From NCBI GenBank assembly GCA_964581115.1, contig CAZOMY010000001.1, positions 325,190-389,189 of the forward strand: DNA of 64,000 nt, in the 5' to 3' direction. Of the stretch, positions 24,100 to 50,574 are shown one piece after another; the stretch's first letter is position 1; every line of letters begins with the position of its first letter. The notes beneath the pieces were generated by a model. That model ran no database searches and had not been told where the DNA came from. It worked only from the letters and a program-made list of their open reading frames with translations. The stretch is from an uncultured Ignavibacteriaceae bacterium. GTDB taxonomy: Bacteria; Bacteroidota; Ignavibacteria; UBA10030. Both the position numbers and the translations under genes were made by a program.

Positions 24100-24299
24100 G
24101 ACAGTATGCTGATTCGTCAGGGCGGATCGAACAGGAGGGTGCGGGGGCGAGCTTGGGCGTGCCGTCGGCGACGGCAGAATGTACATGATGGCCCCCCAAC
24201 AAGCAATGCGTGATTCTTCTCACGTTCTTTCTTGCCGATCAGCCATGAATTCCTTATCTTCCACACACTTTTTCCCAAGTTCCGTCATCCACTGACAAA
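24100..24299. promoter_or_regulatory. Divergent promoter region between the symporter gene (minus) and the GH38 gene (plus)
   Basis: A 200-bp noncoding, relatively AT-richer spacer lies between two divergently oriented starts. Individual -35/-10 or -33/-7 elements were not confidently assigned. Confidence 0.35.
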
Positions 24300-30142: not shown

Positions 30143-30159
30143 GCCATCATTTGAAAAAG

Positions 30160-30265
30160 CGTTTCACAGAGGTCCACAGAGGAACACAGAGATCCACAGA
30201 GAGCATCTCGTTTGAGTACTCGAGCAATGTTCGGTGGATCTCTGTGTGATCTCAGTGTAACGCTT
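30160..30265. repeat. Heptamer-built palindromic intergenic element A
   Basis: Four direct CACAGAG copies at 9-10 bp spacing (CACAGAGgtCCACAGAGgaaCACAGAGatCCACAGAGag) are followed by a 37-bp spacer. The perfect inverted copy GTGGATCTCTGTG (reverse complement of CACAGAGATCCAC) follows. Then come further CACTGAG-like units. Confidence 0.6.
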
Positions 30266-30272
30266 CATGGTG

Positions 30273-32459: not shown

Positions 32460-32469
32460 TGGAGGAGAA

Positions 32470-32560
32470 TTTGCCACAAAGAGCACAAAGGGCACAAAGA
32501 AGTGGGAATTAGGCGATAGTTCAACTTATGGCCTTTTGTGCTCTCTGTGTTCCTTGTGGC
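32470..32560. repeat. Heptamer-built palindromic intergenic element B (related to element A)
   Basis: CCACAAAGagCACAAAGggCACAAAGaagtgg is followed by a 28-bp spacer. Then comes GCCTTTTGTGCTCTCTGTGTTCCTTGTGGC, which is the reverse complement of GCCACAAGGaaCACAGAGagCACAAAAGGC. These are the same CACARAG heptamers at helical-turn spacing, arranged as an imperfect long palindrome. Confidence 0.6.
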
Positions 32561-32575
32561 CAAGCTTGTCTTGTG

Positions 32576-34063: not shown

Positions 34064-34068
34064 GAACG

Positions 34069-35460
34069 TCAGAGGCGGGCGCCGCGCTTGATGAGTTCGG
34101 CGCGCAATCGAATGCCGTCAACCTTTCGGAAGGCCACGCCGTCCCTGATCGACATGGCCGAAGCCACCGCAGCCGCTTCGCCCATCGCCCGGCAATTCGA
34201 TTGCACCCGTATCGAGCTCTGCGCCTCGAACGAAGCCGAGAGACATCGTCCGGCCACTAGCAGTCCGTCTATGCCTACCGGAACAAGGCATCGATAGGGA
34301 ACCTCATGGTATTCTCCAGGAGGGAGCTTCGTCACGCCGTTGCGGGGGTCGTTCGGATCTCGATGGACGTCGAGCGGATAGTTGTTGCGAAGAACGCCGT
34401 CGGGGAACTTGGCGCCGGCGAGGACCTCTTCGGTCGTCAGGTAGTATTCCCCCCGGATCCGCCTCGATTCGCGCACCCCGACCATGGGCGCCGACAGGAC
34501 GAGATACGATCGTTCACATCCGGGGAGATACCGGCGGCAGAAGGAGACGTAGCGTTGAATGATCTCGCGACCTTTGATCTGGGCTTGAGTGAGATGATCG
34601 GGGTTCGTGCCGTCTACGTTCTCGCGGATCCGCGGGCAGTTAAAGGCCAGTTCGCCCGGCCGTCCGGCCATGCTGAACACCTGGAAGTAGTCCCCGTCGC
34701 GCTCAAGCAGGACACCCTCTTCCACCGCTTTGCGGAAGACCGGCTCGAGCGTCCAACCCTTTCCCCAGACCATCGCGGTGTGGATGAGCATCACATCGGT
34801 GCCTTCGGCATTCTCTATCACTTCATGCCGGCCGAGTGAGCGAAGGTATTGTGCGAACCGGGCCAGGTCGACGTTGCCAAGATGGAACCGCACTGAAAAC
34901 GGCTGGTTGCGTCCGGTCTCGGGGTCCCCCTGTTCAACCATGACCCCGGCCCGCGAAGCAACGTCCCCGTCGCCGGATGCATCGATCGTTCGTCGCGCCC
35001 TGATGAATCCCCTTCCGGCCTTGTTCAGTATGACAGAGCCGACGACAGATCCATCGTCCACGACCACGTCCTCAAACATTGTGTAGTACAGGATACGGGC
35101 CCCCATTTCGACGACCATTTGTTCGAGGGTGTACTTGAGCATCTCAGGGTTGAACCATCCTCGATTCCCGTCCTTCCAGACGCCCGACTCGCGCGCCGCG
35201 TTCATGCGCCGGTTGATCTCGAAGTCGATGCCGCCGTTGAGCGGCTCGCCATCGATCTGGTTGGGCATCATGGGGGTTACGAGCGCCCCCGTCTGTGTGC
35301 CGCCGAGGAAGCCCAGCTGTTCGACCACGAGTGTACGAAGGCCTTCGCGGCCGCCGGCGATCGCCGCGACCGCACCGGCCGTGCCGCCTCCGACGATCAG
35401 CAGGTCGACGTCCGCGACCGTCGGGATCGACTGCTCTTGGACTGAGCGCAACGAAAGCAT
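34069..35460 (-). CDS. FAD-dependent oxidoreductase (PF12831-like, GIDA-type fold)
   Basis: The N-terminal dinucleotide-binding motif is DLLIVGGGTAGAVAAIAGGREG, followed by a long FAD_oxidored-like body. The start was chosen at ATG 35460. Position 35463 is a TTG codon. Confidence 0.75.
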   Translation of the reverse strand: MLSLRSVQEQSIPTVADVDLLIVGGGTAGAVAAIAGGREGLRTLVVEQLGFLGGTQTGALVTPMMPNQIDGEPLNGGIDFEINRRMNAARESGVWKDGNRGWFNPEMLKYTLEQMVVEMGARILYYTMFEDVVVDDGSVVGSVILNKAGRGFIRARRTIDASGDGDVASRAGVMVEQGDPETGRNQPFSVRFHLGNVDLARFAQYLRSLGRHEVIENAEGTDVMLIHTAMVWGKGWTLEPVFRKAVEEGVLLERDGDYFQVFSMAGRPGELAFNCPRIRENVDGTNPDHLTQAQIKGREIIQRYVSFCRRYLPGCERSYLVLSAPMVGVRESRRIRGEYYLTTEEVLAGAKFPDGVLRNNYPLDVHRDPNDPRNGVTKLPPGEYHEVPYRCLVPVGIDGLLVAGRCLSASFEAQSSIRVQSNCRAMGEAAAVASAMSIRDGVAFRKVDGIRLRAELIKRGARL

Positions 35461-35540
35461 CAAACGATCCGTGGAGTGTGCGACGAGGTGAGACCATTGA
35501 ACGACCCGACAAGGTCGCCAAGGAACAGCCCAACATCAAC

Positions 35541-36260
35541 TCACAGCCGCGCGTGGAAGCCCATCCGGACGTCGAGCATCTGCAGGCCGCTGACGTTCTC
35601 CATGTCGAGCGCAAGCGCGGGCCAGAGCTCGCCGATGATCATCGTGTATCGCGCGCCAAGCGAGAACCAGAGGGGTTCAAACACCCGCACGCGCACGTCG
35701 GCGCCGAGGTCGAATCCGCCGCTCCATTCTTGCTGTCGGTTCTCCGGAACGTTCAGGATCGCCAGAGTCACGGGAGTTCCCAGCGAATCGGCAACGAGCG
35801 TCCCCCGAAAGGCGCCACGCAGGCTCGTCCAACGGTAGAAGCCGAATCCGAAGGCGCCATCGGCTTCGACGAACTCGCCGGCGAACAGTGGGAATGTCCC
35901 TGTCGCAAGCAGTCCGACCGCCTGTACCGAGACCTCAAGCCCGGTGAGCGGCAGGCCGAAGACCTGTTCGACCCCGGCGATCTCCTTCTTCCTCTTCAGC
36001 GCCAGGGCCTCGCGGTTCTCCTCCGTGAACGAGAGCCACTCCAGACGAGCCCCCCAACGAGGCTTGTCATCAGTGGCAGGCTGGACCAGAAGCGCACCCG
36101 ACCATCCGGGCTTGACACGATCGGATAAGCCACCAAGCGGAATGGCGATGCCGCCTTCGATGCCAACCACGGACGGCGACAAGATGATCTGGGCCCGTCC
36201 GTCAGGAGACGCCAGAGCGAGCCACAAGAGCGTGGCGAGGGACCTCAAGAAAGTCTTCAA
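35541..36260 (-). CDS. Small outer-membrane beta-barrel protein (hypothetical)
   Basis: It has a signal peptide (MKTFLRSLATLLWLALASPDGRAQ) and alternating amphipathic beta-strand patterning. The start is TTG and overlaps the upstream TGA (TTGA). It is the last gene of the co-directional operon. Confidence 0.5.
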   Translation of the reverse strand: MKTFLRSLATLLWLALASPDGRAQIILSPSVVGIEGGIAIPLGGLSDRVKPGWSGALLVQPATDDKPRWGARLEWLSFTEENREALALKRKKEIAGVEQVFGLPLTGLEVSVQAVGLLATGTFPLFAGEFVEADGAFGFGFYRWTSLRGAFRGTLVADSLGTPVTLAILNVPENRQQEWSGGFDLGADVRVRVFEPLWFSLGARYTMIIGELWPALALDMENVSGLQMLDVRMGFHARL

Positions 36261-36991
36261 TACAGAAACTCCAGTGCGATGCGGCCGGTGACAGAGCGGT
36301 CGAACGGCATCTCGTCAAAACCCATGGAGCCCTCGGTCGGAATGATCTGGACCAAGCGCCCCCCCGCTCGTATGCGCAACAACTCCGAGACCCTTACCGA
36401 TACGTCGAGCGATGCCATGGCGAAAAGAGGATTGCCCGCCTTTGGGTTCGAGAACTGTTCGAAGGTGTAGCCAAAGGTGTGGTCGACGGAAGCGAAGTAG
36501 CGCGTCCACGTCTCCTGCAGGTACAGTTTTCGCACAAAGAAAATCATGCCGCCTCCGATGGACGGCGTGACCGACACGCCCTCATCAGCGAACACCGGAT
36601 AGTGCAGTGCTACGGTGATCGGAAAGGCCTGCATACGCTGGATGGGCACGAGCGAGGCCGTGACGATCGAGGAATCCGGCCCGCGAACGATCGATTGTAC
36701 AAGACCGGCGTAGCGATCGTTCCAGAACGTCCAGTTCCATTTCTCCAGGGCACTGTCCTGATCGACCTCGTAGCGCTCATAGCCGAGACCGACCGAGATC
36801 GACAGATCACCAACCAGGCCGATGCGCACATCAACGCCGGCGCTCAGCCCGAAAGCATCGCGCACACGGATCCGCTCCGCGATCGAACGTGCATACCCGC
36901 CCGTGAACTGGACCGATTCCACCTGCGCGGCCGCGGTCATGACCATCAGGGCTGTCAGTGCCGCGCACGACGCCGAACGAAGGCTCTTCAT
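36257..36991 (-). CDS. Small outer-membrane beta-barrel protein (hypothetical)
   Basis: It has a signal peptide (MKSLRSASCAALTALMVMTAAAQ), beta-strand periodicity and a C-terminal aromatic residue (…ALEFLY). The verified ATG overlaps the upstream stop (ATGA). Confidence 0.55.
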   Translation of the reverse strand: MKSLRSASCAALTALMVMTAAAQVESVQFTGGYARSIAERIRVRDAFGLSAGVDVRIGLVGDLSISVGLGYERYEVDQDSALEKWNWTFWNDRYAGLVQSIVRGPDSSIVTASLVPIQRMQAFPITVALHYPVFADEGVSVTPSIGGGMIFFVRKLYLQETWTRYFASVDHTFGYTFEQFSNPKAGNPLFAMASLDVSVRVSELLRIRAGGRLVQIIPTEGSMGFDEMPFDRSVTGRIALEFLY

Positions 36992-37920
36992 AGCGACACC
37001 TGTACGGACATGCGCATCACATTCCCCAGCCGGCCGAACAGCACGTAGGCAAAGTCGAGCTCTACCGGCAGGCCGATGTTCGAACGAAGTCCCACGCCGA
37101 AGCTGTGGTCCTCTTCGTCATAGCCGAACTTATGTCCATAACGCAGCATGATCGATTCCTGCCACGCCACTTCGACCCCGCCGTGGATCCGCTCGTCGTT
37201 GTCGCTCGGGTGGAGCGCCTCCGCCATGATCGTCAGGCGCAACGGTTCGCCCGAACCGCCTATCGCCTCCATCGCAGCGCCCATCCGGAGCGTCGACGGC
37301 ATTCGGAATTCGTCGTTCACGAATTTCGCGTTCGTCCCGAAGTTCTGGATGACGGCTGCCAACCGCAGCGTCTGGAAACCGGTGTGGTAGATCATACCGC
37401 CGTCGAGCAGCAGATTGCTGGCGGCATACACGTCAACCCGCTCTTCGACGTATTTCAACGTTGCGCCGAACGCGAACTTGTCCGTCAGTCGTCTGCCGTA
37501 GGAGACGCCCAACGCCATCGACCGGGCACTGAAGGTTCCGGCCGCCGTAAACTCGCGTGTACCCACCTGACGGACCGTGCGCTCCATCGACCCGTGGTCC
37601 ATGACGTTGGCCGACACGCCGACCAGGCCGAGATCGAGCGGAATGGCAAACGCGACGCCGTAATGGGCGATGTCGGCGATCCAGGGGGCGTACGACAGTC
37701 CGACCGCCTGTGTCTCCATTGCGAATGCCGGACCAGCCGGATTCGAGAAGAGCCCTAAAGGGCCGCCATCGGCCCCGGCGAGGCCCGTTTCGCCCAACGC
37801 TGCATCGCGCGCCGACATCGGGACCTGAAGGAACGTGAATCCGGATGTGCCGGTGCGCTTGAAGGTCTGAGCGGACAGCGAAGCGCTGAGCGCAACGAGG
37901 AGAACGAATGCCCGCTTCAT
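36988..37920 (-). CDS. Putative T9SS-associated outer-membrane beta-barrel protein (PorP/SprF-like or PorV/PorQ-like)
   Basis: 310 aa with a signal peptide (MKRAFVLLVALSASLSAQ). The N-terminal region SARDAALGETGLAGADGGPLGLFSNPAGPAF resembles the conserved ..ARs.alGg...A.aDd.sa...NPAgLA stretch of the PorV/PorQ/PorP families. It is translationally coupled (ATGA) directly downstream of a CTD-bearing cargo gene. This is the typical context of PorP/SprF partners. Confidence 0.5.
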   Translation of the reverse strand: MKRAFVLLVALSASLSAQTFKRTGTSGFTFLQVPMSARDAALGETGLAGADGGPLGLFSNPAGPAFAMETQAVGLSYAPWIADIAHYGVAFAIPLDLGLVGVSANVMDHGSMERTVRQVGTREFTAAGTFSARSMALGVSYGRRLTDKFAFGATLKYVEERVDVYAASNLLLDGGMIYHTGFQTLRLAAVIQNFGTNAKFVNDEFRMPSTLRMGAAMEAIGGSGEPLRLTIMAEALHPSDNDERIHGGVEVAWQESIMLRYGHKFGYDEEDHSFGVGLRSNIGLPVELDFAYVLFGRLGNVMRMSVQVSL

Positions 37921-40007
37921 CGGATGATCGCCAGTTTGCCGATCTTCGTGCCCAACGGAGATTCGACGTGATAGATGTAGATGCCGCTCTCAACGAACTG
38001 GCCGAAATCGGTCAGCTGGTCCCATGCAACAATGCCACCGAAGCCATCGGGCACTGTCAGCGTCTTGACAAGGTCTCCTCGGACGGTGTAGATACGGATC
38101 GCGGCAGGATTGGGGATGTTGACGAACTGGATCTCGTCACCCTGCGTCGGCTGGGAGAAGCCTTCGCCGATCACGTACGGGTTGGGGACGACGAGAATGC
38201 CGTCGAGCGATGCCGACGCCGGCAATGTCATTTTGAATGGCGCCGTGGTCCGGTTCGCGAAGATCGACGATTCCAGCGGAGGCACGCGATTGCTGCCGGT
38301 CTCCGGGAAGATGGCCGACGGATTCACCGGCCAGGAGGCTTTGCCCGTGTCGTAGGCCGTCACGGCATAGTAATAGCCGGTCCCGACGTCTCCCGTCGAA
38401 TCGATAAAGGCATAGCGTCCCGTCGTCCCCGTGTAGAATTGCGGATCGCCGCGGGCGACCGTTCCGATCGGTTCCCAGGGACCGATCGGGAGGTACGAAG
38501 AGCGATAGATTCGGTAGCCGGCGAGGTCGAACGTGCCGTCATCGGGGTCGGCCAGTGATTCGGTCTCCGTCCCCCACGAGATCGACGTGGCAGCAAACCC
38601 GGGCCGGTCGCGAAGATACTCGAGCGTGAATGAAGGCGCGGCCGGTGGATCCGGATGGTTCAGCCCGGGCCGGCTGGCGAGCCGCGATTGATCGTACGTG
38701 AACTGCGCTTTGCGGGCCGTCGTCTGGAAGATCGTCGAACCGGCTCCGATGCTCGCCTTCGAGGCTGACGGGTTGACGACGACGCTGTAGTCGACGCCGT
38801 CCACGACCTCGGCTAGAGCGATGACGACCGAGTCACCCGGCGCGAGATTCCACGGGCCGATCGACATCAGCGACCAGACGCGTGTCCTCCGCATTTGCAG
38901 GGTGTCGGAGGACGAAGCGATCGGATTCGTGGCGTTCGCCGGATCACGGAGGACGTCATACCTTGACTCGAACGTCGCCTTGCCAGTAAACGGGCCTCCC
39001 TGATCGATCGACGGACTGCCCCCCGACCACGCGATCTTGTTGACGCGCGAGGTCTGTCCGAACTTGTTCGGACTGGCATAAAGCAATTTGACACCCACAT
39101 GCCCGGGAGCAAGCCATTCGCCGGTCGGGTCGCCGTTCGCGCTGATGGGCCCCTGGGTGCGCGACCGCATGTACTCTTCATCCTCTGGCGTATCAAGATA
39201 ATCGCCCGAGCGGGCCCACATCATGTTGTAGGTCGGGTGGTTCGGGTTTGTGCTCAGGGGACCGAAATGGTACGTGCCACGGGCCCCGGAGGGCAGCGTC
39301 GGAAAGAGGACGGTCCATGCCCGGGAATTGACATGCAAGCCATAGACGGCCAGGGCGTAAAAGTCAAAGAGCGTGTCCTGCACGGCACGCGCCGTGTCGA
39401 GCAGGCGTATCTCAGCAGAGATGTTCTTGAAGCTGTATTCGTGAATGATGTAGTTCTCGTCGCGTTTTGACCCGCTCCATTGATGCGACAGCCGGCTCAC
39501 GCGCAACGGCAGCTGGCGCTCCCGGTCATCGACACGGTTGTAGTTGAGGTTGTACTCCCACGAGGTCTCGATGACCTCCTCCCCCGTCCGTCCCGACGTT
39601 TTCAGGTGGTGGTTCGCTCCCCCCGGATACAGGTGACGGTGCTTCGTCACGATGTACTTTGCACTCGCTTCGTTCGCGATGCTGCTGGCATAGATCGCCC
39701 AGTCCTCGACCGCGAAGACCGAGTCGGCGTCCTTCTTGGCACCGACGTAGAAACCGCCGGTCACGAGATGCGACGGCGGACCACCGATGTCGCGAGCGAT
39801 CCAGGTGTCGTCAAACCCGGGCCAGTCCAAGCCGATGCCCCGGCGTCCCCAGTTGCTGTAGACCGGGCCAACCTTGCCGGCCTGGAGACTGTGCCAAAGC
39901 ATCCCCCGGCGAAAGCTCAGAATGGGAGACTCCACCTGCGCGACGGCATCGGACATCGCAGACGCGGCCAGCAGACCCAAGATCAGATGACGGAGGTTCG
40001 TTTGCAT
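37917..40007 (-). CDS. Secreted protein with a variant T9SS C-terminal sorting domain (type-B-like or divergent type-A), encoded in the SusD position after a TonB-dependent transporter
   Basis: 696 aa. The SPI-type signal peptide is LILGLLAASAMSDAVAQ, with no lipobox cysteine. The C-terminal ~90 aa are VVPNPYV...IRIYTVRGDLVKTL...WDQLTDFGQFVESGIYIYHVE...GTKIGKLAIIR. This matches the T9SS CTD architecture (PN.F/Y, IY..RG.LV, WDG...G..V.SG.Y.Y, G.K.G.L.IIR). The ATG overlaps the TBDT stop. Confidence 0.65.
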   Translation of the reverse strand: MQTNLRHLILGLLAASAMSDAVAQVESPILSFRRGMLWHSLQAGKVGPVYSNWGRRGIGLDWPGFDDTWIARDIGGPPSHLVTGGFYVGAKKDADSVFAVEDWAIYASSIANEASAKYIVTKHRHLYPGGANHHLKTSGRTGEEVIETSWEYNLNYNRVDDRERQLPLRVSRLSHQWSGSKRDENYIIHEYSFKNISAEIRLLDTARAVQDTLFDFYALAVYGLHVNSRAWTVLFPTLPSGARGTYHFGPLSTNPNHPTYNMMWARSGDYLDTPEDEEYMRSRTQGPISANGDPTGEWLAPGHVGVKLLYASPNKFGQTSRVNKIAWSGGSPSIDQGGPFTGKATFESRYDVLRDPANATNPIASSSDTLQMRRTRVWSLMSIGPWNLAPGDSVVIALAEVVDGVDYSVVVNPSASKASIGAGSTIFQTTARKAQFTYDQSRLASRPGLNHPDPPAAPSFTLEYLRDRPGFAATSISWGTETESLADPDDGTFDLAGYRIYRSSYLPIGPWEPIGTVARGDPQFYTGTTGRYAFIDSTGDVGTGYYYAVTAYDTGKASWPVNPSAIFPETGSNRVPPLESSIFANRTTAPFKMTLPASASLDGILVVPNPYVIGEGFSQPTQGDEIQFVNIPNPAAIRIYTVRGDLVKTLTVPDGFGGIVAWDQLTDFGQFVESGIYIYHVESPLGTKIGKLAIIR

Positions 40008-43000
40008 CAGAAGGTGAACCCGACGGAAAGGAAGATCTGGCGTGGGATGTTCCGGTACGCCTTGTACGGCGCCGCGATGTAGCTGAGCCTGAGCGGATCA
40101 TCACCCGGGTCGGCGACCGTGAATCCGCGTTCGACCCAGTTATTCCGGTCCACTTGTCCGTCCATCGGCGTCAGCCATTGGTTGTTGAACAGGTTCATGA
40201 TGCGGGCCCCCAAGACGATGTCGCGGTCCAACAGGCGCAACGTCTTGACGATATTGACGTCGACGCTCGTTTCAAGTGGATACCGCCGGTTGTACAGCAC
40301 GTCCTGCACGTCGAAATCGGTCACGTAGGTGAACGGAAGTCCGGACTGTGCGGCGTACGTGAGGCTGACGGACGTGTTCGCGAACGGCCGGACGCCCGCG
40401 ATCTCGGCTCCTTCGTCGTGACCCAGCCGGTACTGCACGAGCGCCCGGAGCACATGTGTCCGGTCCGACGGCGACAGGAATTCACCCGTGAAGTTGCGCG
40501 ACGCGAAAGCGGTCACGCCCTCCGGGAACTGCTCCTGCGGACCGTAATTCCCTTCCGTCGTCTGCGAGAGGTTGTAGCTGATGCGATAGTGCCATCGCGA
40601 CGGCGAGATGCGCTCGAACGTGATCTCGAGACCGCGCGTCGAACCGAATGCATTGTTCGCGAAGGTCGTATACAGATAGAGCGGAGTATTGTCGGGCAGA
40701 ACGCCCCGCGGCCGGTCGGCGCTCCCCGTCAGGGCCGCCACGCGCAGCAGTCCCACCTGGCTGACGCGGTCGTTGTAATACAAGGCAACATCAAATCGAT
40801 GGTCCTCATTGACGACCTGCTGAACACCGAACTCGTAATTGATCGTCTTCTTGGGCTCGAGGTTCGGATTGCCCCGGCCGGTCCAACCGCTTTGTGTCCG
40901 CTGCGAGAGGCCGTGTGCGAAGATGGGCATCGATGCAAAGTGGCCGTATTGTACCCGGAACGCCGTGTTCTCGCCGATCGGGAACGAAAGACCCAATCGC
41001 GGCATAAGGACCGTACGGGTCGCCGACGGCTCGGTCGACGGGTCGCCGACGGTACTCGGACGAACGTTGTTGCTGAGCGTCCCCTGGTAGAACGGGTTGA
41101 AGAGGTCGACGGCGACGTCCTCCTGGAAATTGTATGCCTCCGCACGCAATCCGATGTTCGCCACGAGCCCTTCGTACTCCATCTTATCCTGGACATACGC
41201 CGACAGGAGCCACGGATAGGCCCTGTAGTATTCGGCAAATCCGGACCGGAAGAGATAGGAATTCGCCTGGAAGGAGGAGTTGACGCCGTTGTTGACCATG
41301 TCCCAGTAGTAGCCCCGGATGCCGACCTTAAAGAGGTTGGTGGACGTGGCCTGATCGGTATAGTCGACCGCGATCGAGGCGTGTTCCGTCCGGTTGTACT
41401 GGTAGTAGTTCGTACTGAAGTTGAAGGGCTCACGGAAATACGACCCGTCCCACCAGACGCCTTGCCGCAGCACCGTCCCCGAGGCGTCGTTCAGGCTGTC
41501 GAGGCGATCGCGAGCCGACTCATAACCGGCCAGGTATTCGTACGGCAGCTCATACGACTCCACTTGGTGTGAGGCCGTGAGTTCGATGAACGAATGCGTA
41601 TCGATCGTGTAGACCCAATTGAAACTCTGGGTAAAGGTCTCTTCCGTCCGGACGGGGTCGGTCTTGATGTAGTACTTCGTCGAGATGCCGGGAGGACTGA
41701 ATGCGAGGCCCGACCAACGGATGTCATCGGAACCCGACCAGATACCGCCGCGATACCGTTGGTACATGGCGAGCAGCTTGAATTTGTGCGCTCGTACCGG
41801 CGTGTAGATGACGTTCGTCAGATAGTTCTGGAACACGAGGTTCTGTTCGGCAGTCGGTAGTCGCGTCGGCGCGTTGCGGTACTCTCCCGAGAAGAAGAAG
41901 CGCAGGAGCTCCGGGTCGCGCGTCAAGGGTCCGCCGAATCCGATCAGATAGCGCGTATACATCCCTTTCCGGTAATCGTAGACGCCGAGCGCATTGTCGT
42001 CGGCGGGCGTATGGTTCTTGAGCCAGATGTCATATGCCCAAGCCGCTTCTTTGAGGACCACGTCGCTCCATGCCGCCGAGTCGGCTCCCGTCGCGGTTCC
42101 GGTCTGGTACATCTTGTTGTACAACGCCGACGCACGCGTGTTGAGGCCCAGCTGGTCGGCGATCAATCGAAGGTCGCGGATCCAGTAGTCGAAATCGCCC
42201 CATCGCTGCCACTCATAGCTGTTCCGGTCGTAGACATACGGGCCGAAGTGATACTGCCCCGGAGGCCGCATCTCAACGCGGAATTCGCCGTTGAAGCGCG
42301 GGCCACCCTCCTTGGAAACCACCTTCACGACGCCCGCCTGCGCGTTGCCGTACTCGGCCGAGAAGCCGCCCGAGATGAGCTGCACCTGCTGGACCGCCAG
42401 CGGGTTGACGTCAAATTTCCACGAGTTGTCCGCCTTGCTGGTTCCGAACGAGCCCGGGGCCGTCGTCGATGCATTGATCTGTTGGACGCCGTTGATCTGG
42501 TAGTTGACCTCGTAGGCCCCCGAGCCGCGCACGCTGTAGTTGCCTTGCGCGTCCTTCTGGAAGCCGGCGACGAGATCGAGCGCACCTCGAATGCCCTCCA
42601 TCGGCGCCGACTTCAGCTGGGTCTCGCTGATGCTCTGGGCGGTCGAGGTCTGATCGCGGATGATCTTCGGCCGCTCAGCCGTCACCACCACTTCCTTCGC
42701 CTCGATGGTGGCGTCTTCCATCTGCAGGTCGATGTTCGTCGTCCGGTCGATGTCGATCTCTACGCTCCGTACAGAGACGCGATTGTATCCAAGCATGGAG
42801 CCGATGACGGTGTACGTTCCCGGAGGAATGTTCAGGATCGTGTATCGACCCTCGAAATCCGTGGCCACGCCGAGCGTCGTTCCTTCGAGGAAGACGTTCG
42901 CTCCGATCAAAGGTTCTCGGGTCCGGGCATCGACGACGCTGCCCGACAGCTTTCCACGCTGGCCCTGGGCTTGCAGCGGCCCGAGGCACACGGCCAGCAC

Positions 43001-43048
43001 GGAAAGGGCGAGAAGAAGGCGGTGTCGCACGGTCAACTCACTTGACAA
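40007..43048 (-). CDS. TonB-dependent transporter, SusC/RagA-like (CarboxypepD_reg N-domain, plug, 22-strand barrel)
   Basis: 1013 aa. The signal peptide is followed by KLSGSVVDARTREPLIGANVFLEGTTLGVATDFEGRYTILNIPPGTYTV, a carboxypeptidase-regulatory-like domain. The plug region and a long barrel follow. The C-terminus is the typical ...SVGFTF. The start is TTG at 43048. Confidence 0.88.
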   Translation of the reverse strand: MSSELTVRHRLLLALSVLAVCLGPLQAQGQRGKLSGSVVDARTREPLIGANVFLEGTTLGVATDFEGRYTILNIPPGTYTVIGSMLGYNRVSVRSVEIDIDRTTNIDLQMEDATIEAKEVVVTAERPKIIRDQTSTAQSISETQLKSAPMEGIRGALDLVAGFQKDAQGNYSVRGSGAYEVNYQINGVQQINASTTAPGSFGTSKADNSWKFDVNPLAVQQVQLISGGFSAEYGNAQAGVVKVVSKEGGPRFNGEFRVEMRPPGQYHFGPYVYDRNSYEWQRWGDFDYWIRDLRLIADQLGLNTRASALYNKMYQTGTATGADSAAWSDVVLKEAAWAYDIWLKNHTPADDNALGVYDYRKGMYTRYLIGFGGPLTRDPELLRFFFSGEYRNAPTRLPTAEQNLVFQNYLTNVIYTPVRAHKFKLLAMYQRYRGGIWSGSDDIRWSGLAFSPPGISTKYYIKTDPVRTEETFTQSFNWVYTIDTHSFIELTASHQVESYELPYEYLAGYESARDRLDSLNDASGTVLRQGVWWDGSYFREPFNFSTNYYQYNRTEHASIAVDYTDQATSTNLFKVGIRGYYWDMVNNGVNSSFQANSYLFRSGFAEYYRAYPWLLSAYVQDKMEYEGLVANIGLRAEAYNFQEDVAVDLFNPFYQGTLSNNVRPSTVGDPSTEPSATRTVLMPRLGLSFPIGENTAFRVQYGHFASMPIFAHGLSQRTQSGWTGRGNPNLEPKKTINYEFGVQQVVNEDHRFDVALYYNDRVSQVGLLRVAALTGSADRPRGVLPDNTPLYLYTTFANNAFGSTRGLEITFERISPSRWHYRISYNLSQTTEGNYGPQEQFPEGVTAFASRNFTGEFLSPSDRTHVLRALVQYRLGHDEGAEIAGVRPFANTSVSLTYAAQSGLPFTYVTDFDVQDVLYNRRYPLETSVDVNIVKTLRLLDRDIVLGARIMNLFNNQWLTPMDGQVDRNNWVERGFTVADPGDDPLRLSYIAAPYKAYRNIPRQIFLSVGFTF

Positions 43049-44456
43049 GCATCATCGTACGCGACAAGACCCCTTCGCGGGTCGTAAGCGTGTACGTATA
43101 GGCGCCGCTGGCCAGGCCGCCGCCGTCAAAGAATCGATGGTGGATCCCGGCCGACAGATCGCCATCCACCAGCGCTGCCACGCGCTGTCCGATGACATTG
43201 AAGACCTCCAGTCGGACCGGACCGGCCGACCGCAACGTGAAGGCGATCATGGTCGTCGGGTTGAACGGATTCGGATAGTTCTGGTACAGCGCGAAGTCCA
43301 TCGGAGACTGGGAGGCCGATTCGACGGTGGTCGCGGTCGTGTACTTGAACTGGAAGACCTTCTGCGCCACCGCATCCGAGACATAGGCGGTCAGTCCGTC
43401 GGGCGTCAATCCGACATCGGTGGGGGCGATCATTGGAGCACCGTTCGGGTCTGCGCTGAAGCCATCCTGATTATTCACCGACGGCAGGTCGAACGTTTCC
43501 ATGGCAAGAATGCCGCCTACGTCGAAGGCCTTCACCCATCGCTTCGTCGAATCGATGCCGGCGACCCAGAGGAGGCCGTCCTTGTCCATCGTGATCCCGT
43601 AGCTCACAGCGCTCGAAAAGGTCAGGAGCCCGGTGGCATCGGAGATCCGCGTCCCGCGGTAGGTACCCATCGCCAGTTGCTTGCCGCCTTGCCAGGCCGT
43701 GATACCCCCGGTCGACGTCGAGGCCGCGGAATTGCGGGACGTATAGAAGACGGTGTTCGTATCGGCGTAGTCGCCGTTGGGACGGAGCGCGATGTCTCGA
43801 ATGACGTCCACGCCCCCCGTTTGTTGGCCGCCGGGGTCGAGTTGCGATTCCGACGACCATGCGCCCTTGATGGGAGCTGTGATCGTATTCGTGAAGTTGT
43901 ACGACCTCACCCGCGGACCTGGCACTCCGGCCCCTGCCGATACACCCGCAAATGCGATCGTGTCGCGCGTCAGTGTCACCCCATGGTGAAACGTACCATG
44001 ACCCGACTGGGACGGCAAATAGTAGCCGAATTTCTGCACCAGCATCGTGTCTCCGGTGGGATAGTAGTACATGACACCCACCGTTGCCGGCTTGGTCCGC
44101 TGATACGGTATCGAGGCATTGATGATGATATCTGAACCGATCGAACCGATCCCACGCAACTGGCCGATGTTGCCGGTCAGCGTGTCGGCGTCGCCGTTGA
44201 GGGTGAAGTCGACCAACTTCTTCATCTCAGAGTCATTCGAATCTGCGTACCAGATGGCGTTTCGAGCAGTGGCATTGGTCGCCGTGGTCGAGATCACGTA
44301 CACTCGGCCGGCCGATGTGACGGTCAACAGATATGGTTGCACGTAGGAGGAATCCGTCGCCGGGAACGGGATCGCCTTGATGAAACGCCACTGCGGCTGA
44401 GCTGACGCTGTCAGCACGCTCAACGCCGTGATCATGACTGTCGCAAGGATCTTCAT
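43038..44456 (-). CDS. Secreted hypothetical protein (probable beta-propeller-like fold) with a type-A T9SS C-terminal domain
   Basis: The start was chosen at the verified ATG 44456 (MKILATVMITALSVLTASAQ, a signal peptide). The C-terminus is YQNYPNPFNPTTMIAF...GAYTYTLTTREGVLSRTMMLVK, a canonical type-A CTD. The 3' end overlaps the TBDT start by 11 nt. Confidence 0.7.
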   Translation of the reverse strand: MKILATVMITALSVLTASAQPQWRFIKAIPFPATDSSYVQPYLLTVTSAGRVYVISTTATNATARNAIWYADSNDSEMKKLVDFTLNGDADTLTGNIGQLRGIGSIGSDIIINASIPYQRTKPATVGVMYYYPTGDTMLVQKFGYYLPSQSGHGTFHHGVTLTRDTIAFAGVSAGAGVPGPRVRSYNFTNTITAPIKGAWSSESQLDPGGQQTGGVDVIRDIALRPNGDYADTNTVFYTSRNSAASTSTGGITAWQGGKQLAMGTYRGTRISDATGLLTFSSAVSYGITMDKDGLLWVAGIDSTKRWVKAFDVGGILAMETFDLPSVNNQDGFSADPNGAPMIAPTDVGLTPDGLTAYVSDAVAQKVFQFKYTTATTVESASQSPMDFALYQNYPNPFNPTTMIAFTLRSAGPVRLEVFNVIGQRVAALVDGDLSAGIHHRFFDGGGLASGAYTYTLTTREGVLSRTMMLVK

Positions 44457-44557
44457 GGCACATCTCCTCTTGGATGTGTCACCACCCGACAACCCCGGTG
44501 GCCGACTGATGGTATGGATGGAGAATGACGACTCGTTGCCAGGACAATGTCTGAGGG

Positions 44558-46534
44558 TCATTTCACGAGCACAACACGCCGAAGCAACCGGCGCCCGCTG
44601 TCCGGGGTCGCATCGGCATCCGACACATGAAGTACGATCAGATACACCCCCGTCGCCAACGATCCGGCCTCCCACGTTCGTCGGTGCATTCCCGCTTCGA
44701 AGGTCCCTTCGGCGATGGTCGCGGCAGCCCGTCCAAGCAGATCATACGCCATGATCCGAACGAACGAACGCCGAGAGACATCGAATCGGATCGTCGTCGT
44801 CGAATTGAACGGGTTGGGAAATGGAGGATGCAACTCGAATGAGCGCGGCGCCTCCGGATCGGAGGTGGACATCGAGGTCGGCGTTCCCGGCGAGAGACGC
44901 CGATTGCGCAACAGCATCAGGTCGTCGCCGACCACGTTCTTCCCCGAGCCGATGCCGGCGTTCGTCAGGGTGGCGATGTGCGCCACGACGCCGCCGGGCA
45001 CATACACATCTCCGAGTTTCGTCCAGCCGGCATTCAAGGCGTTGGACTGGTCAACAACGACCGCCTTCGGTGAAGACGCCGTGTCGTGCAAGAGATAGGT
45101 CGCCGTGGGCGTCAGAGCGTTCAATCCTGTCGGGATGTACGCGTAGAGTTCGTAGATCCCCGGCTCGGGGACCGTCGCCGTGTATCGCATCGTATCGGCA
45201 CCCGCAGCGTCGGCGTAGAAGACCGACCCACCCCACGCAGAGACAAAACTGAGTCCGACGAAACCGGAGCGGATGGCCGCCGAGTCGCGCGCAAACACCG
45301 GCGACGGACGCCAGCCGGACGAACGGTGCGGAACGGGAACCTTCGTAGAGTAGACCTGGTCTCGTAGGGAGAACATGTAACCCGCATCGCGAAGGTCATT
45401 GTAATACCACCACGCATGCCCCGTCAGGCCTGCGTTCCGGCTCGTCTGGACGAGATTCACGCCCTCGCTGATCGAGAAGAGGGTCCCGCTCGGCTTGATG
45501 GCGATACCGGCGTTCACCCTCTGCTGCGATGACGAGGAGAGACCGTACAGCGCCGAAGGGATGTAGTTCTGGAGGATCGATGAGGATTGATACATCTGCA
45601 CTTGGGCGGCGTCAAGCTTGCCCTGACCAAGCCACGCCTTCCAATCCTGCAGGTAACTATCGTAGGCAGGATAGGATCCGAGCCCCGATGCATAGTGGCT
45701 CGGCGCGTTTGAAACAACGACGTTCGGGTTCACCGACTTGATCGAATCGTACACATTGGCGTGGAATGAATTCAGCTGGTCGGCGCGCCAACGCTTCCAC
45801 GCGGCATTGGAGCCGTCCGTCGGGGGCGCGCTGCCGGTGGCCGTGGTATACTTGACGACCGACGCGCTGTCATATCCGAAGTCTAAACCGGGGTATCGGA
45901 TGCGGTCGAGCTCGATGCCGTCAACGTCGTATCGTCGCGCGATCTCTTCATGCAATTCCAGCAGGAATGAGCGCGCTTCGTCGTTGTTGTGCGACAACCA
46001 GTAGAAGTAGATGCCTCCCTCTGGATTGCCGATGAGGTCGTTACCTGAGGCATCCTTGCCAAGCCATGACGGATACCGCCCGAATAAGGGACCCTTGGGG
46101 AACCCGGGAAGAGTATAGCCCGTCCACCAACCGGCAAAGCCGTACTCCATCCACGCTTCGATCTCGAGCCCGTTCCGGTGGGCCTCGGCGATGGCTTCCT
46201 GCAAGATGTCTCGACCACCCGCAGCGGGATCAGTTTCATAGCCGGTCTCTCGGAAGAAGATCTCACTCCGGAACAGCGGGAATCCCCGGCTCCAAGCGTT
46301 GAAATAGACGACGTTGAAGTTGGAGGCGGCGATGGTATCCATCGTCCGGGCGATCTCGGCCTTCGTCCAGAAACTACCGCCCGTCCGGGGCGTCACCCAG
46401 ATACCGCGCAACTCTTGTGCGGCCGACAGGTTCCAGAAGGAAGCGAGACTGAGGATGAGGGCCGTCCACGGGATCCGTTTCAAAGCCGGTCGCGGGGGGA
46501 TGCACTGCTTGGGTGACCGTGGAAAGTGCATCAT
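44558..46534 (-). CDS. Glycoside-hydrolase-like family 10 (GHL10, PF02638/YngK-like) secreted protein with a type-A T9SS C-terminal domain
   Basis: A signal peptide is followed by ELRGIWVTP...NFNVVYFNAWSRGFPLFRS, which forms the GHL10 TIM-barrel start. The EAWMEYGF and DVDGIELDRIRYP motifs are present. The C-terminus is HPPFPNPFNSTTTIRF...GVYLIVLH...RRVVLVK. The ATG was verified. The gene overlaps the ROK regulator stop (ATGA). Confidence 0.75.
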   Translation of the reverse strand: MMHFPRSPKQCIPPRPALKRIPWTALILSLASFWNLSAAQELRGIWVTPRTGGSFWTKAEIARTMDTIAASNFNVVYFNAWSRGFPLFRSEIFFRETGYETDPAAGGRDILQEAIAEAHRNGLEIEAWMEYGFAGWWTGYTLPGFPKGPLFGRYPSWLGKDASGNDLIGNPEGGIYFYWLSHNNDEARSFLLELHEEIARRYDVDGIELDRIRYPGLDFGYDSASVVKYTTATGSAPPTDGSNAAWKRWRADQLNSFHANVYDSIKSVNPNVVVSNAPSHYASGLGSYPAYDSYLQDWKAWLGQGKLDAAQVQMYQSSSILQNYIPSALYGLSSSSQQRVNAGIAIKPSGTLFSISEGVNLVQTSRNAGLTGHAWWYYNDLRDAGYMFSLRDQVYSTKVPVPHRSSGWRPSPVFARDSAAIRSGFVGLSFVSAWGGSVFYADAAGADTMRYTATVPEPGIYELYAYIPTGLNALTPTATYLLHDTASSPKAVVVDQSNALNAGWTKLGDVYVPGGVVAHIATLTNAGIGSGKNVVGDDLMLLRNRRLSPGTPTSMSTSDPEAPRSFELHPPFPNPFNSTTTIRFDVSRRSFVRIMAYDLLGRAAATIAEGTFEAGMHRRTWEAGSLATGVYLIVLHVSDADATPDSGRRLLRRVVLVK

Positions 46535-50448: not shown

Positions 50449-50574
50449 GGTTGTTCTTCGAATGTGTCGATGCGGTGACGGATGATACGTACAATTGCGA
50501 CCTGGTGAAAGACTGCGGTGGATGAACGGTCGAGGTTGTACATTCAAACAACCCTCTCTTCCAGGAGCCATCCC

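What the first reader, a model, noticed from the sequence alone, without database searches (positions are those of the whole stretch)
35541..44456. Six-gene translationally coupled operon mixing a TonB-dependent transporter, T9SS cargo proteins and a PorP/SprF-like barrel
Six genes lie on the minus strand. Five of the six junctions between them show overlapping or abutting stop and start codons: 43038/43048, 40007 ATGA, 37917/37920 ATGA, 36988/36991 ATGA and 36257/36260 TTGA. A sixth gene (a FAD oxidoreductase) follows about 80 bp downstream. 

The genes are: (1) a beta-propeller-like type-A CTD cargo; (2) a SusC-like TonB-dependent transporter; (3) a 696-aa protein in the SusD position, carrying an SPI signal and a T9SS-type CTD instead of a lipoprotein lipobox; (4) a ~300-aa PorP/SprF- or PorV-like beta-barrel; (5, 6) two small OMP barrels. 

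In classical Sus-like loci the TBDT partner is a SusD lipoprotein. Here the partner appears to be a T9SS-secreted, surface-attached protein with its own dedicated PorP-like barrel. The locus is directly downstream of the ROK regulator and GHL10 genes. 

This looks like an undescribed architecture that couples TonB-dependent import to T9SS-anchored surface proteins.
Basis: partly seen in the sequence, partly recalled or inferred. Interest (0 to 1): 0.72.

Follow-up and report, generated by a model that had tools for sequence, protein, structure and literature searches.

The report
TonB transporter with T9SS-tethered partner
This conserved operon pairs a TonB-dependent outer-membrane importer with an all-beta surface protein carrying a PorZ-like secretion tail, a PorV/PorQ-family barrel next to it and two small barrels, instead of a SusD lipoprotein; the same module recurs in at least three bacterial phylum-level lineages and I found no description of it.

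Summary
Six minus-strand genes (35541-44456) are tightly packed and lie inside a longer sugar-utilisation gene run.

Gene identities:
- g1: beta-propeller with a canonical type-A T9SS tail.
- g2: TonB-dependent transporter (CarboxypepD_reg domain, Plug, barrel). It fails the SusC family model.
- g3 (696 aa): not SusD. It has a signal peptide without a lipobox, a beta-supersandwich of the kind found at the N-terminus of GH15/GH94/GH65 enzymes, an FN3 domain, and a tail closest to the retained tails of PorZ and PorU.
- g4: a PorV/PorQ-family barrel, not PorP/SprF.
- g5, g6: distant paralogues. g6 models as an 8-stranded OmpA/NspA-like barrel.

The g2-g6 order is conserved in about 80 sampled Ignavibacteria species (202 carry g3). 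All 10 sampled distant g3 relatives sit beside a CarboxypepD_reg transporter and a PorV-family barrel, with varied regulators and enzymes. Source labels place some of them in KSB1 and Handelsmanbacteria.

Best reading: a modular, PUL-like glycan-import unit. A T9SS-exported binding protein is tethered by its uncleaved tail to a cognate PorQ-like barrel next to the transporter.

Physical association, tail retention and the substrate are all inferred. Seven full-text searches found no description of the module.

The parts
46531..47757 (-). ROK-family transcriptional regulator (wHTH plus ROK; NagC/Mlc-like). Its stop overlaps the GHL10 start (ATGA).
   Evidence: Pfam ROK 139.7 bits and HTH_24. 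NagC 145 bits and Mlc 143 bits, both below their equivalog cut-offs. Junction.
44558..46534 (-). Secreted GHL10 hydrolase-like protein with a Golvesin_C domain and a type-A-like T9SS tail.
   Evidence: GHL10 146.8 bits; Golvesin_C 36.3 bits; Por_Secre_tail 20.3 bits, below cut-off. GHL10 genes flank the core in most relatives.
43038..44456 (-). g1: 472-aa beta-propeller-type protein with a canonical type-A T9SS C-terminal domain.
   Evidence: TIGR04183 27.4 bits against a cut-off of 23. Of 34 family members, 34 hit PF18962, 14 SGL, 9 Reg_prop and 4 NHL. Signal peptide ends SA|Q.
40007..43048 (-). g2: TonB-dependent transporter, 1013 aa from the TTG start (1007 aa if the GTG at 43030 is used). 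Domains: N-terminal CarboxypepD_reg-like domain, Plug, large barrel.
   Evidence: CarbopepD_reg_2 82 bits, Plug 38.3 bits, OMP_b-brl_3 39.4 bits. SusC model TIGR04056 scores 68.5 against 368, N-terminus only. It is closer to the module transporters of other phyla than to the two other transporter-like genes in the window.
37917..40007 (-). g3: 696-aa secreted surface protein with a signal-peptidase-I signal (no lipobox). Family-specific; occupies the SusD position.
   Evidence: No Pfam hit. More than 180 full-length homologues at 50-94% identity, all annotated hypothetical. AF2 pLDDT 84, pTM 0.82.
38688..39935 (-). g3 residues ~25-440: beta-supersandwich (galactose-mutarotase-like) domain; putative glycan-binding module.
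38343..38645 (-). g3 residues ~455-555: fibronectin type III-like spacer domain.
37920..38216 (-). g3 residues ~598-696: PorZ/PorU-like T9SS C-terminal domain, a subtype distinct from the type-A tails elsewhere in the window.
36988..37920 (-). g4: 310-aa PorV/PorQ-family (FadL-like) outer-membrane barrel; proposed cognate anchor for the g3 tail.
   Evidence: NF033709 181.2 bits (cut-off 90); PorQ 120.9 (<220); PorV 75.7 (<250); no PorP/SprF hit. PDB PorV 6h3i_F at E 5.7e-10.
36257..36991 (-). g5: 244-aa small outer-membrane barrel, a distant paralogue of g6. Ends in ...EFLY.
   Evidence: hhalign g5 family against g6 family: probability 96%, E 1.8e-9, full length. Of 44 orthologues, 16 hit PF13505 OMP_b-brl, best E 2.4e-6.
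35541..36260 (-). g6: 239-aa 8-stranded OmpA/NspA/OmpW-like outer-membrane barrel.
34069..35463 (-). FAD-dependent oxidoreductase (PF12831), 77 nt downstream of g6. A cytoplasmic or periplasmic catabolic step is presumed.
   Evidence: FAD_oxidored 360.7 bits. Conserved directly after g6 in the closest relatives and some more distant ones.
32576..34063 (-). 495-aa polytopic membrane protein with no family assignment; candidate inner-membrane permease.
   Evidence: No Pfam or NCBIfam hit. Co-conserved with the Hydantoinase_A gene in many Ignavibacteria loci.
28082..32495 (-). Downstream catabolic genes: Hydantoinase_A-type ATPase (30273-32495) and a DUF4855-ROK kinase fusion (28082-30142).
   Evidence: Pfam. 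Same order in relatives L003-L006.
48226..50637 (-). GHL10-NAGPA (phosphodiester glycosidase) protein upstream of the regulator.
   Evidence: GHL10 156.6 bits, NAGPA 116.9 bits. Conserved upstream in close relatives.

Best explanation
The locus encodes a PUL-like outer-membrane nutrient-uptake module of a type not built on SusC/SusD.

Proposed mechanism:
1. A ROK repressor controls the gene run.
2. T9SS-secreted GHL10-type enzymes, and the g1 propeller, act on an extracellular glycan. The substrate is a low-confidence guess: an amino-sugar or phosphodiester-linked, cell-wall-type polymer.
3. g3 crosses the inner membrane by Sec and the outer membrane by the T9SS.
4. Its PorZ/PorU-like C-terminal domain is not cleaved. 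It stays bound to the cognate PorV/PorQ-family barrel g4, as PorZ does on PorQ and PorU on PorV.
5. This holds the g3 beta-supersandwich glycan-binding domain, on its FN3 stalk, next to the TonB-dependent transporter g2. g2 then imports the oligosaccharides.
6. The 8-stranded barrels g5 and g6 are further membrane subunits of unknown role. Scaffolding or stabilising is my guess.

What is shown: the gene identities, the folds, the distinct tail subtype, and the tight, conserved and recurrent co-occurrence of transporter, g3-type protein and PorV-family barrel.

What is inferred: tail retention, g3-g4 binding, g4-g2 docking, glycan binding by g3, and the substrate.
For: - Gene identities.
- Tail subtype: the g3 family hits the PorZ C-terminus in 35 of 48 members, the PorU C-terminus in 25 and TIGR04183 in 31. 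In the g1 family, 34 of 34 members hit PF18962. The g3-tail HMM hits nothing else in the window.
- g4: PorV/PorQ family, scoring highest on PorQ among the three curated equivalog models (PorQ, PorV, PorV2). It also matches PorV 6h3i.
- Published precedent: the PorZ tail is retained and binds PorQ, and the PorU tail stays on PorV. Type-B cargo genes cluster with their cognate PorP/SprF genes. Cognate PorV-like barrels are proposed to protect tails from cleavage (PMC10202324; PMC10947112).
- Conservation: g3 relatives occur in 202 species genomes. The g2-g3-g4-g5-g6 order and strand are invariant in the ~80 loci examined, wherever the contig is complete. Median gaps are 4-20 nt.
- Generality: all 10 sampled distant relatives lie beside a CarboxypepD_reg transporter and a PorV-family barrel. 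This includes proteins that share only the tail. Upstream regulators include LacI and GntR types. Downstream enzymes include sulfatase, GFO_IDH_MocA, GH98+NPCBM and GHL10. That is the pattern expected of substrate-specific PULs.
- Partner barrels in those loci all pass NF033709 (161-228 bits).
- g2 is closer to those transporters than to the window's own other transporter-like genes.
- Two paralogous modules occur in one genome: P0203 and P0337 lie on the same 3.28-Mb contig.
- GHL10 includes E. coli DigH (453 bits), a hydrolase specific for denuded peptidoglycan glycans (PMC12288456).
Against: - There is no direct evidence for any protein-protein contact, or for retention of the g3 tail.
- The window copy of g3 fails PF18962 and TIGR04183 at E <= 0.01. 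All PorZ, PorQ and PorV equivalog scores lie far below their cut-offs.
- T9SS core genes are not in the window. Their presence in this genome is assumed from the many tail-bearing proteins here and from Por sorting domains reported on Melioribacter CAZymes (PMC3534657).
- The g3 N-domain fold also occurs in enzymes (aldose epimerase) and in YidC, so a binding role is not proven.
- The 10 distant contexts were picked from the top 150 hits, not at random.
- Taxon labels come from MAG annotations.
- The g5/g6 role is unknown, and g6-like genes were detected in only 3 of 9 distant loci scanned.
- The substrate proposal rests on one characterised GHL10 member.
Confidence: 0.6

Rival explanations
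1. Dedicated export shuttle only. g4 is a private PorV-like shuttle needed to pull g3 out of the T9SS translocon. The tail is then cleaved, and g3 is LPS-anchored or released. It acts as a free or loosely surface-bound binding protein or enzyme, with no stable g3-g4-g2 complex.
For: PorV is a shuttle for type-A cargo (PMC5562754, listed; PMC10202324). Of 48 g3 family members, 31 still score on the type-A model. Gene clustering alone cannot separate 'needed for export' from 'permanent anchor'.
Against: The tail subtype is closest to the two known retained tails, PorZ and PorU. It is distinct from the ordinary type-A tails in the same operon. Those ordinary tails evidently manage without a private barrel. 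The strict three-way linkage with a transporter, even for proteins that share only the tail, is not explained by export needs.
Confidence: 0.2
2. g4 is a FadL-type substrate channel, not a tail receptor. It imports a hydrophobic or amphipathic product in parallel with the TonB-dependent transporter. Its adjacency to g3 reflects a shared substrate, not binding.
For: PorV-family barrels are FadL homologues (PMC12578637). Weak Toluene_X/FadL and UPF0164 Pfam marks appear on some partner barrels.
Against: All partner barrels pass the curated PorV/PorQ family model. They always sit beside a protein with a PorZ-like tail (10 of 10 contexts). The linked enzymes are carbohydrate-active, not lipid-active.
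Confidence: 0.08
3. The genes are T9SS machinery. g3 and g4 would be the Ignavibacteria orthologues of PorZ and PorQ (the attachment complex), and the transporter-like barrel an accessory T9SS outer-membrane component.
For: The best equivalog-level hits are PorZ for the g3 tail and PorQ for g4. g3 is highly conserved, about 50% identity across the class.
Against: - g3 lacks the PorZ beta-propellers; its model is supersandwich plus FN3.
- Scores are 23 against a cut-off of 260, and 121 against 220.
- Several paralogous modules with different N-terminal domains occur, two of them in one genome.
- The modules are linked to LacI, GntR or ROK regulators and to varied catabolic enzymes.
- g2 has a Plug domain.
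Confidence: 0.05
4. It is an ordinary SusC/SusD polysaccharide utilisation locus whose SusD is too divergent to recognise.
For: The order of regulator, enzymes, a transporter with a CarboxypepD_reg N-terminus and a ~700-aa partner resembles a PUL. Ignavibacteria do carry classical SusCD pairs (PMC3534657; PMC5753385).
Against: The partner is all-beta, has no lipobox and carries a T9SS tail. It has no SusD Pfam or NCBIfam hit. g2 fails TIGR04056 (68.5 against 368 bits).
Confidence: 0.02

Closest known systems
SusC/SusD (RagA/RagB) pairs of Bacteroidota polysaccharide utilisation loci
   Same: A TonB-dependent transporter with an N-terminal CarboxypepD_reg-like domain and Plug. The next gene encodes a ~600-800-aa surface partner. 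Both are embedded among a regulator, secreted glycan-active enzymes and catabolic genes. Modules are paralogous, with different enzyme sets.
   Different: - The partner is not a TPR lipoprotein. It is an all-beta supersandwich-FN3 protein with a signal-peptidase-I signal and a T9SS tail.
- A PorV/PorQ-family barrel, and often a small 8-stranded barrel, are additional fixed components.
- The transporter fails the SusC subfamily model.
PorZ-PorQ and PorU-PorV sub-complexes of the T9SS attachment complex (Porphyromonas gingivalis)
   Same: A T9SS-exported protein whose C-terminal domain resembles the retained PorZ and PorU tails, paired with a PorV/PorQ-family barrel. This offers a precedent for non-covalent surface tethering through an uncleaved tail.
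   Different: - Here the two genes are adjacent and sit next to a TonB-dependent transporter.
- The passenger is a supersandwich-FN3 protein, not the PorZ double propeller or the PorU sortase.
- There are many paralogous pairs with PUL-like contexts.
- Equivalog thresholds are not met.
Type-B CTD cargo with cognate PorP/SprF barrels (for example SprB-SprF in Flavobacterium johnsoniae, PG1035-PorP)
   Same: The principle of a cargo gene clustered with a private PorV-like barrel gene that is proposed to anchor it on the cell surface.
   Different: The barrel is PorV/PorQ family, not PorP/SprF. The tail is not type B. The functional context is nutrient import, not gliding adhesins.
BamG-BamH in the Bacteroidota BAM complex
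   Same: A FadL/PorV-like barrel that packs against a larger barrel (BamA) and holds a surface-exposed protein through its extracellular loops. This is a structural precedent for a FadL-like barrel acting as an adaptor.
   Different: The machinery is unrelated (outer-membrane protein biogenesis). The bound partner is a lipoprotein, not T9SS cargo. Only one partner barrel here gave a weak BamG hit (E 4.6e-4).

Membership tests
SusC/RagA TonB-linked outer membrane protein (TIGR04056) | Whole-protein score at or above the curated cut-off (368 bits), with the match spanning the barrel | tested here: not met
   68.5 bits. The match covers only residues 33-165, the N-terminal domain.
SusC/RagA TonB-linked outer membrane protein (TIGR04056) | Adjacent SusD/RagB-family lipoprotein gene | tested here: not met
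   The downstream gene g3 has no SusD hit, is all-beta and has no lipobox Cys.
TonB-dependent transporter (generic) | Plug domain followed by a large beta-barrel, with a signal peptide | tested here: met
   Plug 38.3 bits (cut-off 23.9). OMP_b-brl_3 39.4 bits (cut-off 27). Signal peptide ...LQA|Q. The barrel ends ...VGFTF.
TonB-dependent transporter (generic) | TonB box, and energy dependence on TonB-ExbBD | not testable with these tools
   A TonB-box-like 'KEVVVTAE' lies between the N-terminal domain and the Plug. This was read by eye from the translation. No TonB/ExbBD genes were looked for outside the window.
SusD/RagB | TPR-based all-alpha fold, lipoprotein signal with Cys, and a Pfam SusD-like model hit | tested here: not met
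T9SS type-A C-terminal sorting domain (TIGR04183 / PF18962), tested on g3 | Score above the curated cut-off on the C-terminal ~70-100 residues | tested here: inconclusive
   The window g3 has no hit at E <= 0.01. Of 48 orthologues, 31 hit TIGR04183 at E <= 0.01 (best 3.7e-5) and 1 hits PF18962. Two homologues are named 'T9SS type A sorting domain-containing' by NCBI. The predicted fold is a 7-strand beta-sandwich that matches the PorZ tail.
T9SS type-A C-terminal sorting domain (TIGR04183 / PF18962), tested on g1 | Score above the curated cut-off | tested here: met
   TIGR04183 27.4 bits against 23. All 34 orthologues hit PF18962, best E 7e-12.
PorZ (NF052228) | Two beta-propeller domains plus a tail, with a whole-protein score of at least 260 bits | tested here: not met
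   23.3 bits, tail region only. The model has no propeller.
PorV/PorQ family (NF033709), tested on g4 | Whole-protein score of at least 90 bits on the family model, full length | tested here: met
   181.2 bits, residues 25-309 against model positions 1-325 of 326. PDB PorV 6h3i_F at E 5.7e-10.
PorQ (NF033711) and PorV (NF033710) equivalogs, tested on g4 | Score above the equivalog cut-off (220 for PorQ, 250 for PorV) | tested here: not met
   PorQ 120.9 bits; PorV 75.7 bits. The partner barrels of distant loci also fall below these cut-offs.
PorP/SprF (PF11751 / TIGR03519) | A hit to the family model on g4, g5 or g6 | tested here: not met
   No such family is listed for g4, g5 or g6 at E <= 0.01 in Pfam or NCBIfam.
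Small 8-stranded outer-membrane barrels (OmpA transmembrane domain / NspA / OmpW; PF13505) | Signal peptide, an 8-stranded antiparallel barrel, and a Pfam OMP_b-brl hit | tested here: met
GHL10 (PF02638), tested on the flanking enzymes | Pfam score above the gathering threshold; a characterised member for functional transfer | tested here: met
   146.8 and 156.6 bits. E. coli DigH scores 453 bits on the same model. The substrate of the window enzymes was not tested.

The most novel reading that the evidence does not exclude
A widespread, unrecognised class of TonB-dependent glycan importers exists in FCB-group and neighbouring candidate phyla: Ignavibacteria, KSB1 (Zhuqueibacterota) and Handelsmanbacteria. 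In this class the surface binding subunit is not a lipoprotein. It is T9SS cargo held permanently by its uncleaved PorZ-like tail on a private PorQ-like barrel, and that barrel is itself a subunit of the transporter complex. Assembly of nutrient-uptake machines would then depend on the T9SS. The PorZ-PorQ and PorU-PorV pairs of the secretion system would be specialised members of a much larger family of 'tail plus cognate barrel' tethers.
Probability: 0.4. Interest if true: 0.85.

Novelty: new variant of a known kind. Interest (0 to 1): 0.74.

Why it matters
- PUL prediction tools such as PULDB define loci by the susC-susD tandem. A transporter class whose partner is T9SS cargo plus a PorV-family barrel is invisible to them. 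The glycan-foraging capacity of Ignavibacteria, KSB1 and related uncultured lineages would therefore be under-called. These groups are common in sediments, bioreactors and groundwater.
- Mechanistically, the module would extend the 'cognate PorV-like barrel protects and anchors a tail' idea from the secretion machinery to nutrient uptake. It would also give a natural, many-membered family in which to study what determines tail cleavage versus retention.
- It supplies functional context for four families with no functional annotation in these libraries (g3, g5, g6 and the 495-aa membrane protein), and for the many surplus PorV/PorQ paralogues annotated in FCB genomes.
- The orthologous locus is found in a MAG labelled Ignavibacterium album and in Melioribacteraceae MAGs. 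If the cultured type strains of I. album and Melioribacter roseus carry it, which I did not check, the model is experimentally testable.

Tried and rejected
- Sequence searches of PDB with the g3, g5 and g6 family profiles and with g1 found nothing useful. g2 matched only an isolated N-terminal domain.
- The word-indexed homology search with g5 alone found only 4 close relatives, because the family diverges fast. I rebuilt the g5 and g6 families from the fetched loci instead.
- Sigma-70 promoter and intrinsic terminator scans did not exceed the shuffled expectation. A search for the Bacteroidetes-type TAnnTTTG motif found none on the minus strand of 32000-51000. No transcript boundaries could be inferred.
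- A barrel-side test of the module's generality could not be done. The 14-sequence alignment was too divergent. The 4-sequence alignment failed with 'unexpected contig name', which consumed the only metagenome scan.
- Seven full-text literature searches found no paper describing a transporter plus tail-bearing protein plus PorV-family barrel module (for GHL10/DigH). This is absence within a partial library, not proof of novelty.
- I considered and rejected the idea that Ignavibacteria simply lack SusD. Melioribacter roseus has a SusCDE operon, and PULDB predicts susCD PULs in Ignavibacteriae.

Full report
OBSERVATION

The six minus-strand ORFs are present as described.

Junctions:
- g1/g2: -11 nt with a TTG start at 43048.
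- g2/g3: -1 nt (TGATG, not ATGA).
- g3/g4: -4 nt (ATGA).
- g4/g5: -4 nt (ATGA).
- g5/g6: -4 nt (TTGA).
- g6 to the FAD oxidoreductase: +77 nt.

An in-frame GTG at 43030 would turn the g1/g2 overlap into a 7-nt gap, as in the two closest relatives. That junction is therefore uncertain.

The run is longer than six genes. The ROK regulator overlaps the upstream GHL10 gene (ATGA). The FAD oxidoreductase is followed after 5 nt by a 495-aa membrane protein. After that come a Hydantoinase_A-type gene and a DUF4855-ROK fusion.

All of g1-g6 have signal-peptidase-I-type signal peptides ending A|Q. None has a lipobox.

Promoter and terminator scans gave nothing beyond the shuffled expectation.

WHAT THE GENES ARE

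- g1 (472 aa) carries a canonical type-A T9SS tail: TIGR04183 27.4 bits against a cut-off of 23. All 34 orthologues hit PF18962. SGL, Reg_prop, NHL and SBBP hits across the family support a beta-propeller body.
- g2 (1013 aa) is a TonB-dependent transporter with a CarboxypepD_reg-like N-terminal domain, a Plug and a barrel. It scores 68.5 bits against 368 on the SusC/RagA model, and only over its N-terminus. Against PDB sequences only an isolated N-terminal domain matches.
- g3 (696 aa) has no Pfam hit.
- g4 (310 aa) is a PorV/PorQ-family barrel: NF033709 181 bits against a cut-off of 90. It scores 121 on PorQ (<220) and 76 on PorV (<250), with no PorP/SprF hit. It matches Flavobacterium johnsoniae PorV (6h3i_F) at E 6e-10.

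THE 696-AA PROTEIN

More than 180 full-length homologues at 50-94% identity exist. Those that carry an organism label are almost all from Ignavibacteria MAGs, and nearly all are annotated as hypothetical.

An AF2 model built on 48 of them is confident (pLDDT 84, pTM 0.82). It shows four parts:
- a signal peptide;
- a large beta-sandwich (residues ~25-440);
- an FN3-like domain (~455-555);
- a C-terminal beta-sandwich (~600-696).

So g3 is not SusD. It has the architecture of a stalked carbohydrate-binding surface protein.

The tail is T9SS-like but of a particular subtype:
- The window copy matches only the C-terminal region of the PorZ model (E 1.9e-5).
- Of 48 orthologues, 35 hit PorZ, 31 hit TIGR04183, 25 hit the C-terminus of the PorU sortase, and only 1 hits PF18962.
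- An HMM of this tail finds only g3 in a six-frame scan of the window. It misses the type-A tails of g1, of the GHL10 protein and of the BNR protein at 59735-63157.

PorZ and PorU are the two T9SS proteins whose tails are reported not to be cleaved. They stay bound to PorQ and PorV respectively (PMC10947112; PMC10202324).

CONSERVATION

A scan of one genome per GTDB species found g3 relatives in 202 genomes. Nearly all of the 80 fetched loci are labelled Ignavibacteria/Ignavibacteriales, Melioribacteraceae or generic Bacteroidota; a few carry other labels.

In those 80 loci the order and strand g2-g3-g4-g5-g6 is invariant wherever the contig is complete. GHL10 genes, often with tails, sit next to the core in most loci. 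g1 lies directly upstream or a few kb downstream. Median intergenic gaps are 20, 19, 7 and 4 nt. The window's stop/start overlaps are therefore a lineage-specific extreme of a conserved tight operon.

GENERALITY

An exhaustive profile search with the g3 family found 7758 proteins at E <= 1e-3 and 126 at E <= 1e-30. Many are 600-1250 aa and share only the FN3-plus-tail region, or only the tail.

I looked up the genomic context of ten of them: P0196, P0195, P0203, P0258, P0188, P0232, P0282, P0222, P0363 and P0184. Every one lies next to a CarboxypepD_reg TonB-dependent transporter and a PorV-family barrel. The truncated neighbour in L087 is 36% identical to g4.

Further features of these loci:
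- The order is usually transporter, tail-bearing protein, barrel. Once it is transporter, barrel, tail-bearing protein.
- Upstream regulators are LacI, GntR or sigma-54 types.
- Neighbouring enzymes differ: GFO_IDH_MocA, sulfatase, MR_MLE, GH98+NPCBM, FGE-sulfatase, GHL10-CTD.
- A g6-like small barrel sits just upstream of the transporter in three of nine loci scanned.
- Four partner barrels tested all pass NF033709 (161-228 bits) and fail the PorQ and PorV equivalog cut-offs.
- g2 is more similar to these transporters (147-165 bits over the N-terminal 300 aa, plus barrel segments) than to the two other transporter-like genes in its own window (30 and 21 bits).
- Source labels place members in candidate division KSB1 (= Ca. 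Zhuqueibacterota, FCB group) and Ca. Handelsmanbacteria.
- Two paralogous modules occur on one 3.28-Mb contig.

This is the pattern of a modular, substrate-specific uptake system. It is analogous to SusCD PULs but built from different parts.

MECHANISM PROPOSED

Shown:
- the parts and their folds;
- the distinct tail subtype;
- the invariant linkage of transporter, tail-bearing protein and PorV-family barrel.

Inferred:
- g3 is exported by Sec and the T9SS.
- Its tail is retained and bound by g4, as PorZ is on PorQ.
- This places the supersandwich domain over or beside g2, where it captures oligosaccharides for TonB-powered import.
- g5 and g6 are extra membrane subunits.

A FadL/PorV-like barrel that packs on a larger barrel and holds a surface protein has a structural precedent in BamG-BamH of the Bacteroidota BAM complex (PMC12578637).

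SUBSTRATE (LOW CONFIDENCE)

The locus and its orthologues are dominated by the following:
- GHL10 proteins;
- a GHL10-NAGPA phosphodiester glycosidase;
- DUF4855-ROK;
- a NagC/Mlc-like ROK regulator;
- a PF12831 flavoprotein;
- a Hydantoinase_A-type ATPase.

E. coli DigH, a hydrolase specific for denuded peptidoglycan glycans (PMC12288456), scores 453 bits on the GHL10 model. An amino-sugar or cell-wall-type glycan is therefore a reasonable guess, and no more than that.

RIVALS

- g4 may be only a private export shuttle, with the tail cleaved afterwards (0.2).
- g4 may be a FadL-type channel unrelated to the tail (0.08).
- g3 and g4 may be true PorZ/PorQ orthologues (0.05). Counting against this are the absence of propellers, the far sub-threshold scores, and the multiple paralogous PUL-like modules.
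- It may be an ordinary SusCD locus (0.02). This is contradicted by fold, signal peptide and HMMs.

COMPARISON AND NOVELTY

The system works like a SusCD PUL and borrows the PorZ-PorQ tethering principle. It is a member of neither family:
- The SusC, SusD, PorZ, PorQ, PorV and PorP/SprF membership tests all fail.
- The generic TonB-dependent transporter and PorV/PorQ-family tests pass.

Ignavibacteria also possess classical SusCD pairs, so this is an additional system and not a replacement.

Seven full-text searches found no description of the module. The library is partial, so prior description elsewhere cannot be excluded.

I rate it a new variant of a known kind, with interest 0.74. The reasons are that it is widespread, that it links T9SS surface anchoring to TonB-dependent import, that susCD-based PUL predictors cannot see it, and that it is testable if cultured relatives carry the locus.

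LIMITS

- No protein-protein interaction was predicted or measured.
- T9SS core genes were not sought outside the window.
- The ten distant contexts were chosen from the strongest 150 hits.
- The barrel-side metagenome test failed for technical reasons.

Noticed in passing
window 47782-47806: Inverted repeat GGTTTGT-N11-ACAAACC, 25-50 nt upstream of the ROK regulator start codon. It is the only such site between 28000 and 51000. It is a candidate operator for autoregulation of the gene run.
   Followed up: partly
window 56373-58631 and 59735-63157 (minus strand): A second pair of a T9SS tail-bearing protein followed by a TonB-dependent transporter. The first is a 1140-aa Sortilin/BNR protein with Por_Secre_tail (32 bits) and FlgD_ig; the second is a CarbopepD_reg-Plug-barrel transporter. 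No g3-type tail accompanies it and no PorV-family gene was noted there. It may represent a simpler arrangement.
   Followed up: partly
window 32576-34063 (minus) with 30273-32495: A 495-aa polytopic membrane protein with no Pfam or NCBIfam family is co-conserved with a Hydantoinase_A-type gene in more than 15 Ignavibacteria loci. In many of them the pair is divergently oriented upstream of g1. It may be an uncharacterised transporter family paired with an ASKHA-type ATPase.
   Followed up: no
window 35541-44456, N-termini of g1-g6: All six predicted signal peptides end in Ala followed by Gln at position +1. The g3 orthologues mostly begin their mature form with Q-V-E-S or a close variant. From my own knowledge, this fits the Bacteroidetes 'Q-rule' of pyroglutamate N-termini.
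   Followed up: no
window 28082-30142 (minus): A fusion of DUF4855 (202 bits) with a complete ROK sugar-kinase domain (195 bits) in one 686-aa protein. It is conserved in close relatives. This suggests that DUF4855 acts on the same sugar the kinase phosphorylates.
   Followed up: no
L087:912-1661, L089:4958-5698, L094:3834-4610: In modules from other lineages the g6-like 8-stranded barrel sits immediately upstream of the transporter, instead of after the PorV-family barrel. No g5-like gene was detected in any of those loci.
   Followed up: partly
window 24285-26120 (minus) against 24300-27419 (plus): A 611-aa minus-strand ORF lies entirely inside the GH38 alpha-mannosidase gene on the opposite strand and has no family hit. 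It is most likely a spurious high-GC shadow ORF, one of many in this 62% GC window.
   Followed up: no
window 35541-36260: P0149 is 100% identical to g6 and is recorded on a 454,522-bp NCBI/Logan contig. The closest labelled genomes are 'Bacteroidetes bacterium Prado081' and an uncultured Ignavibacteriaceae MAG, at 89-90% g3 identity. The window therefore comes from a high-GC Ignavibacteria lineage.
   Followed up: partly
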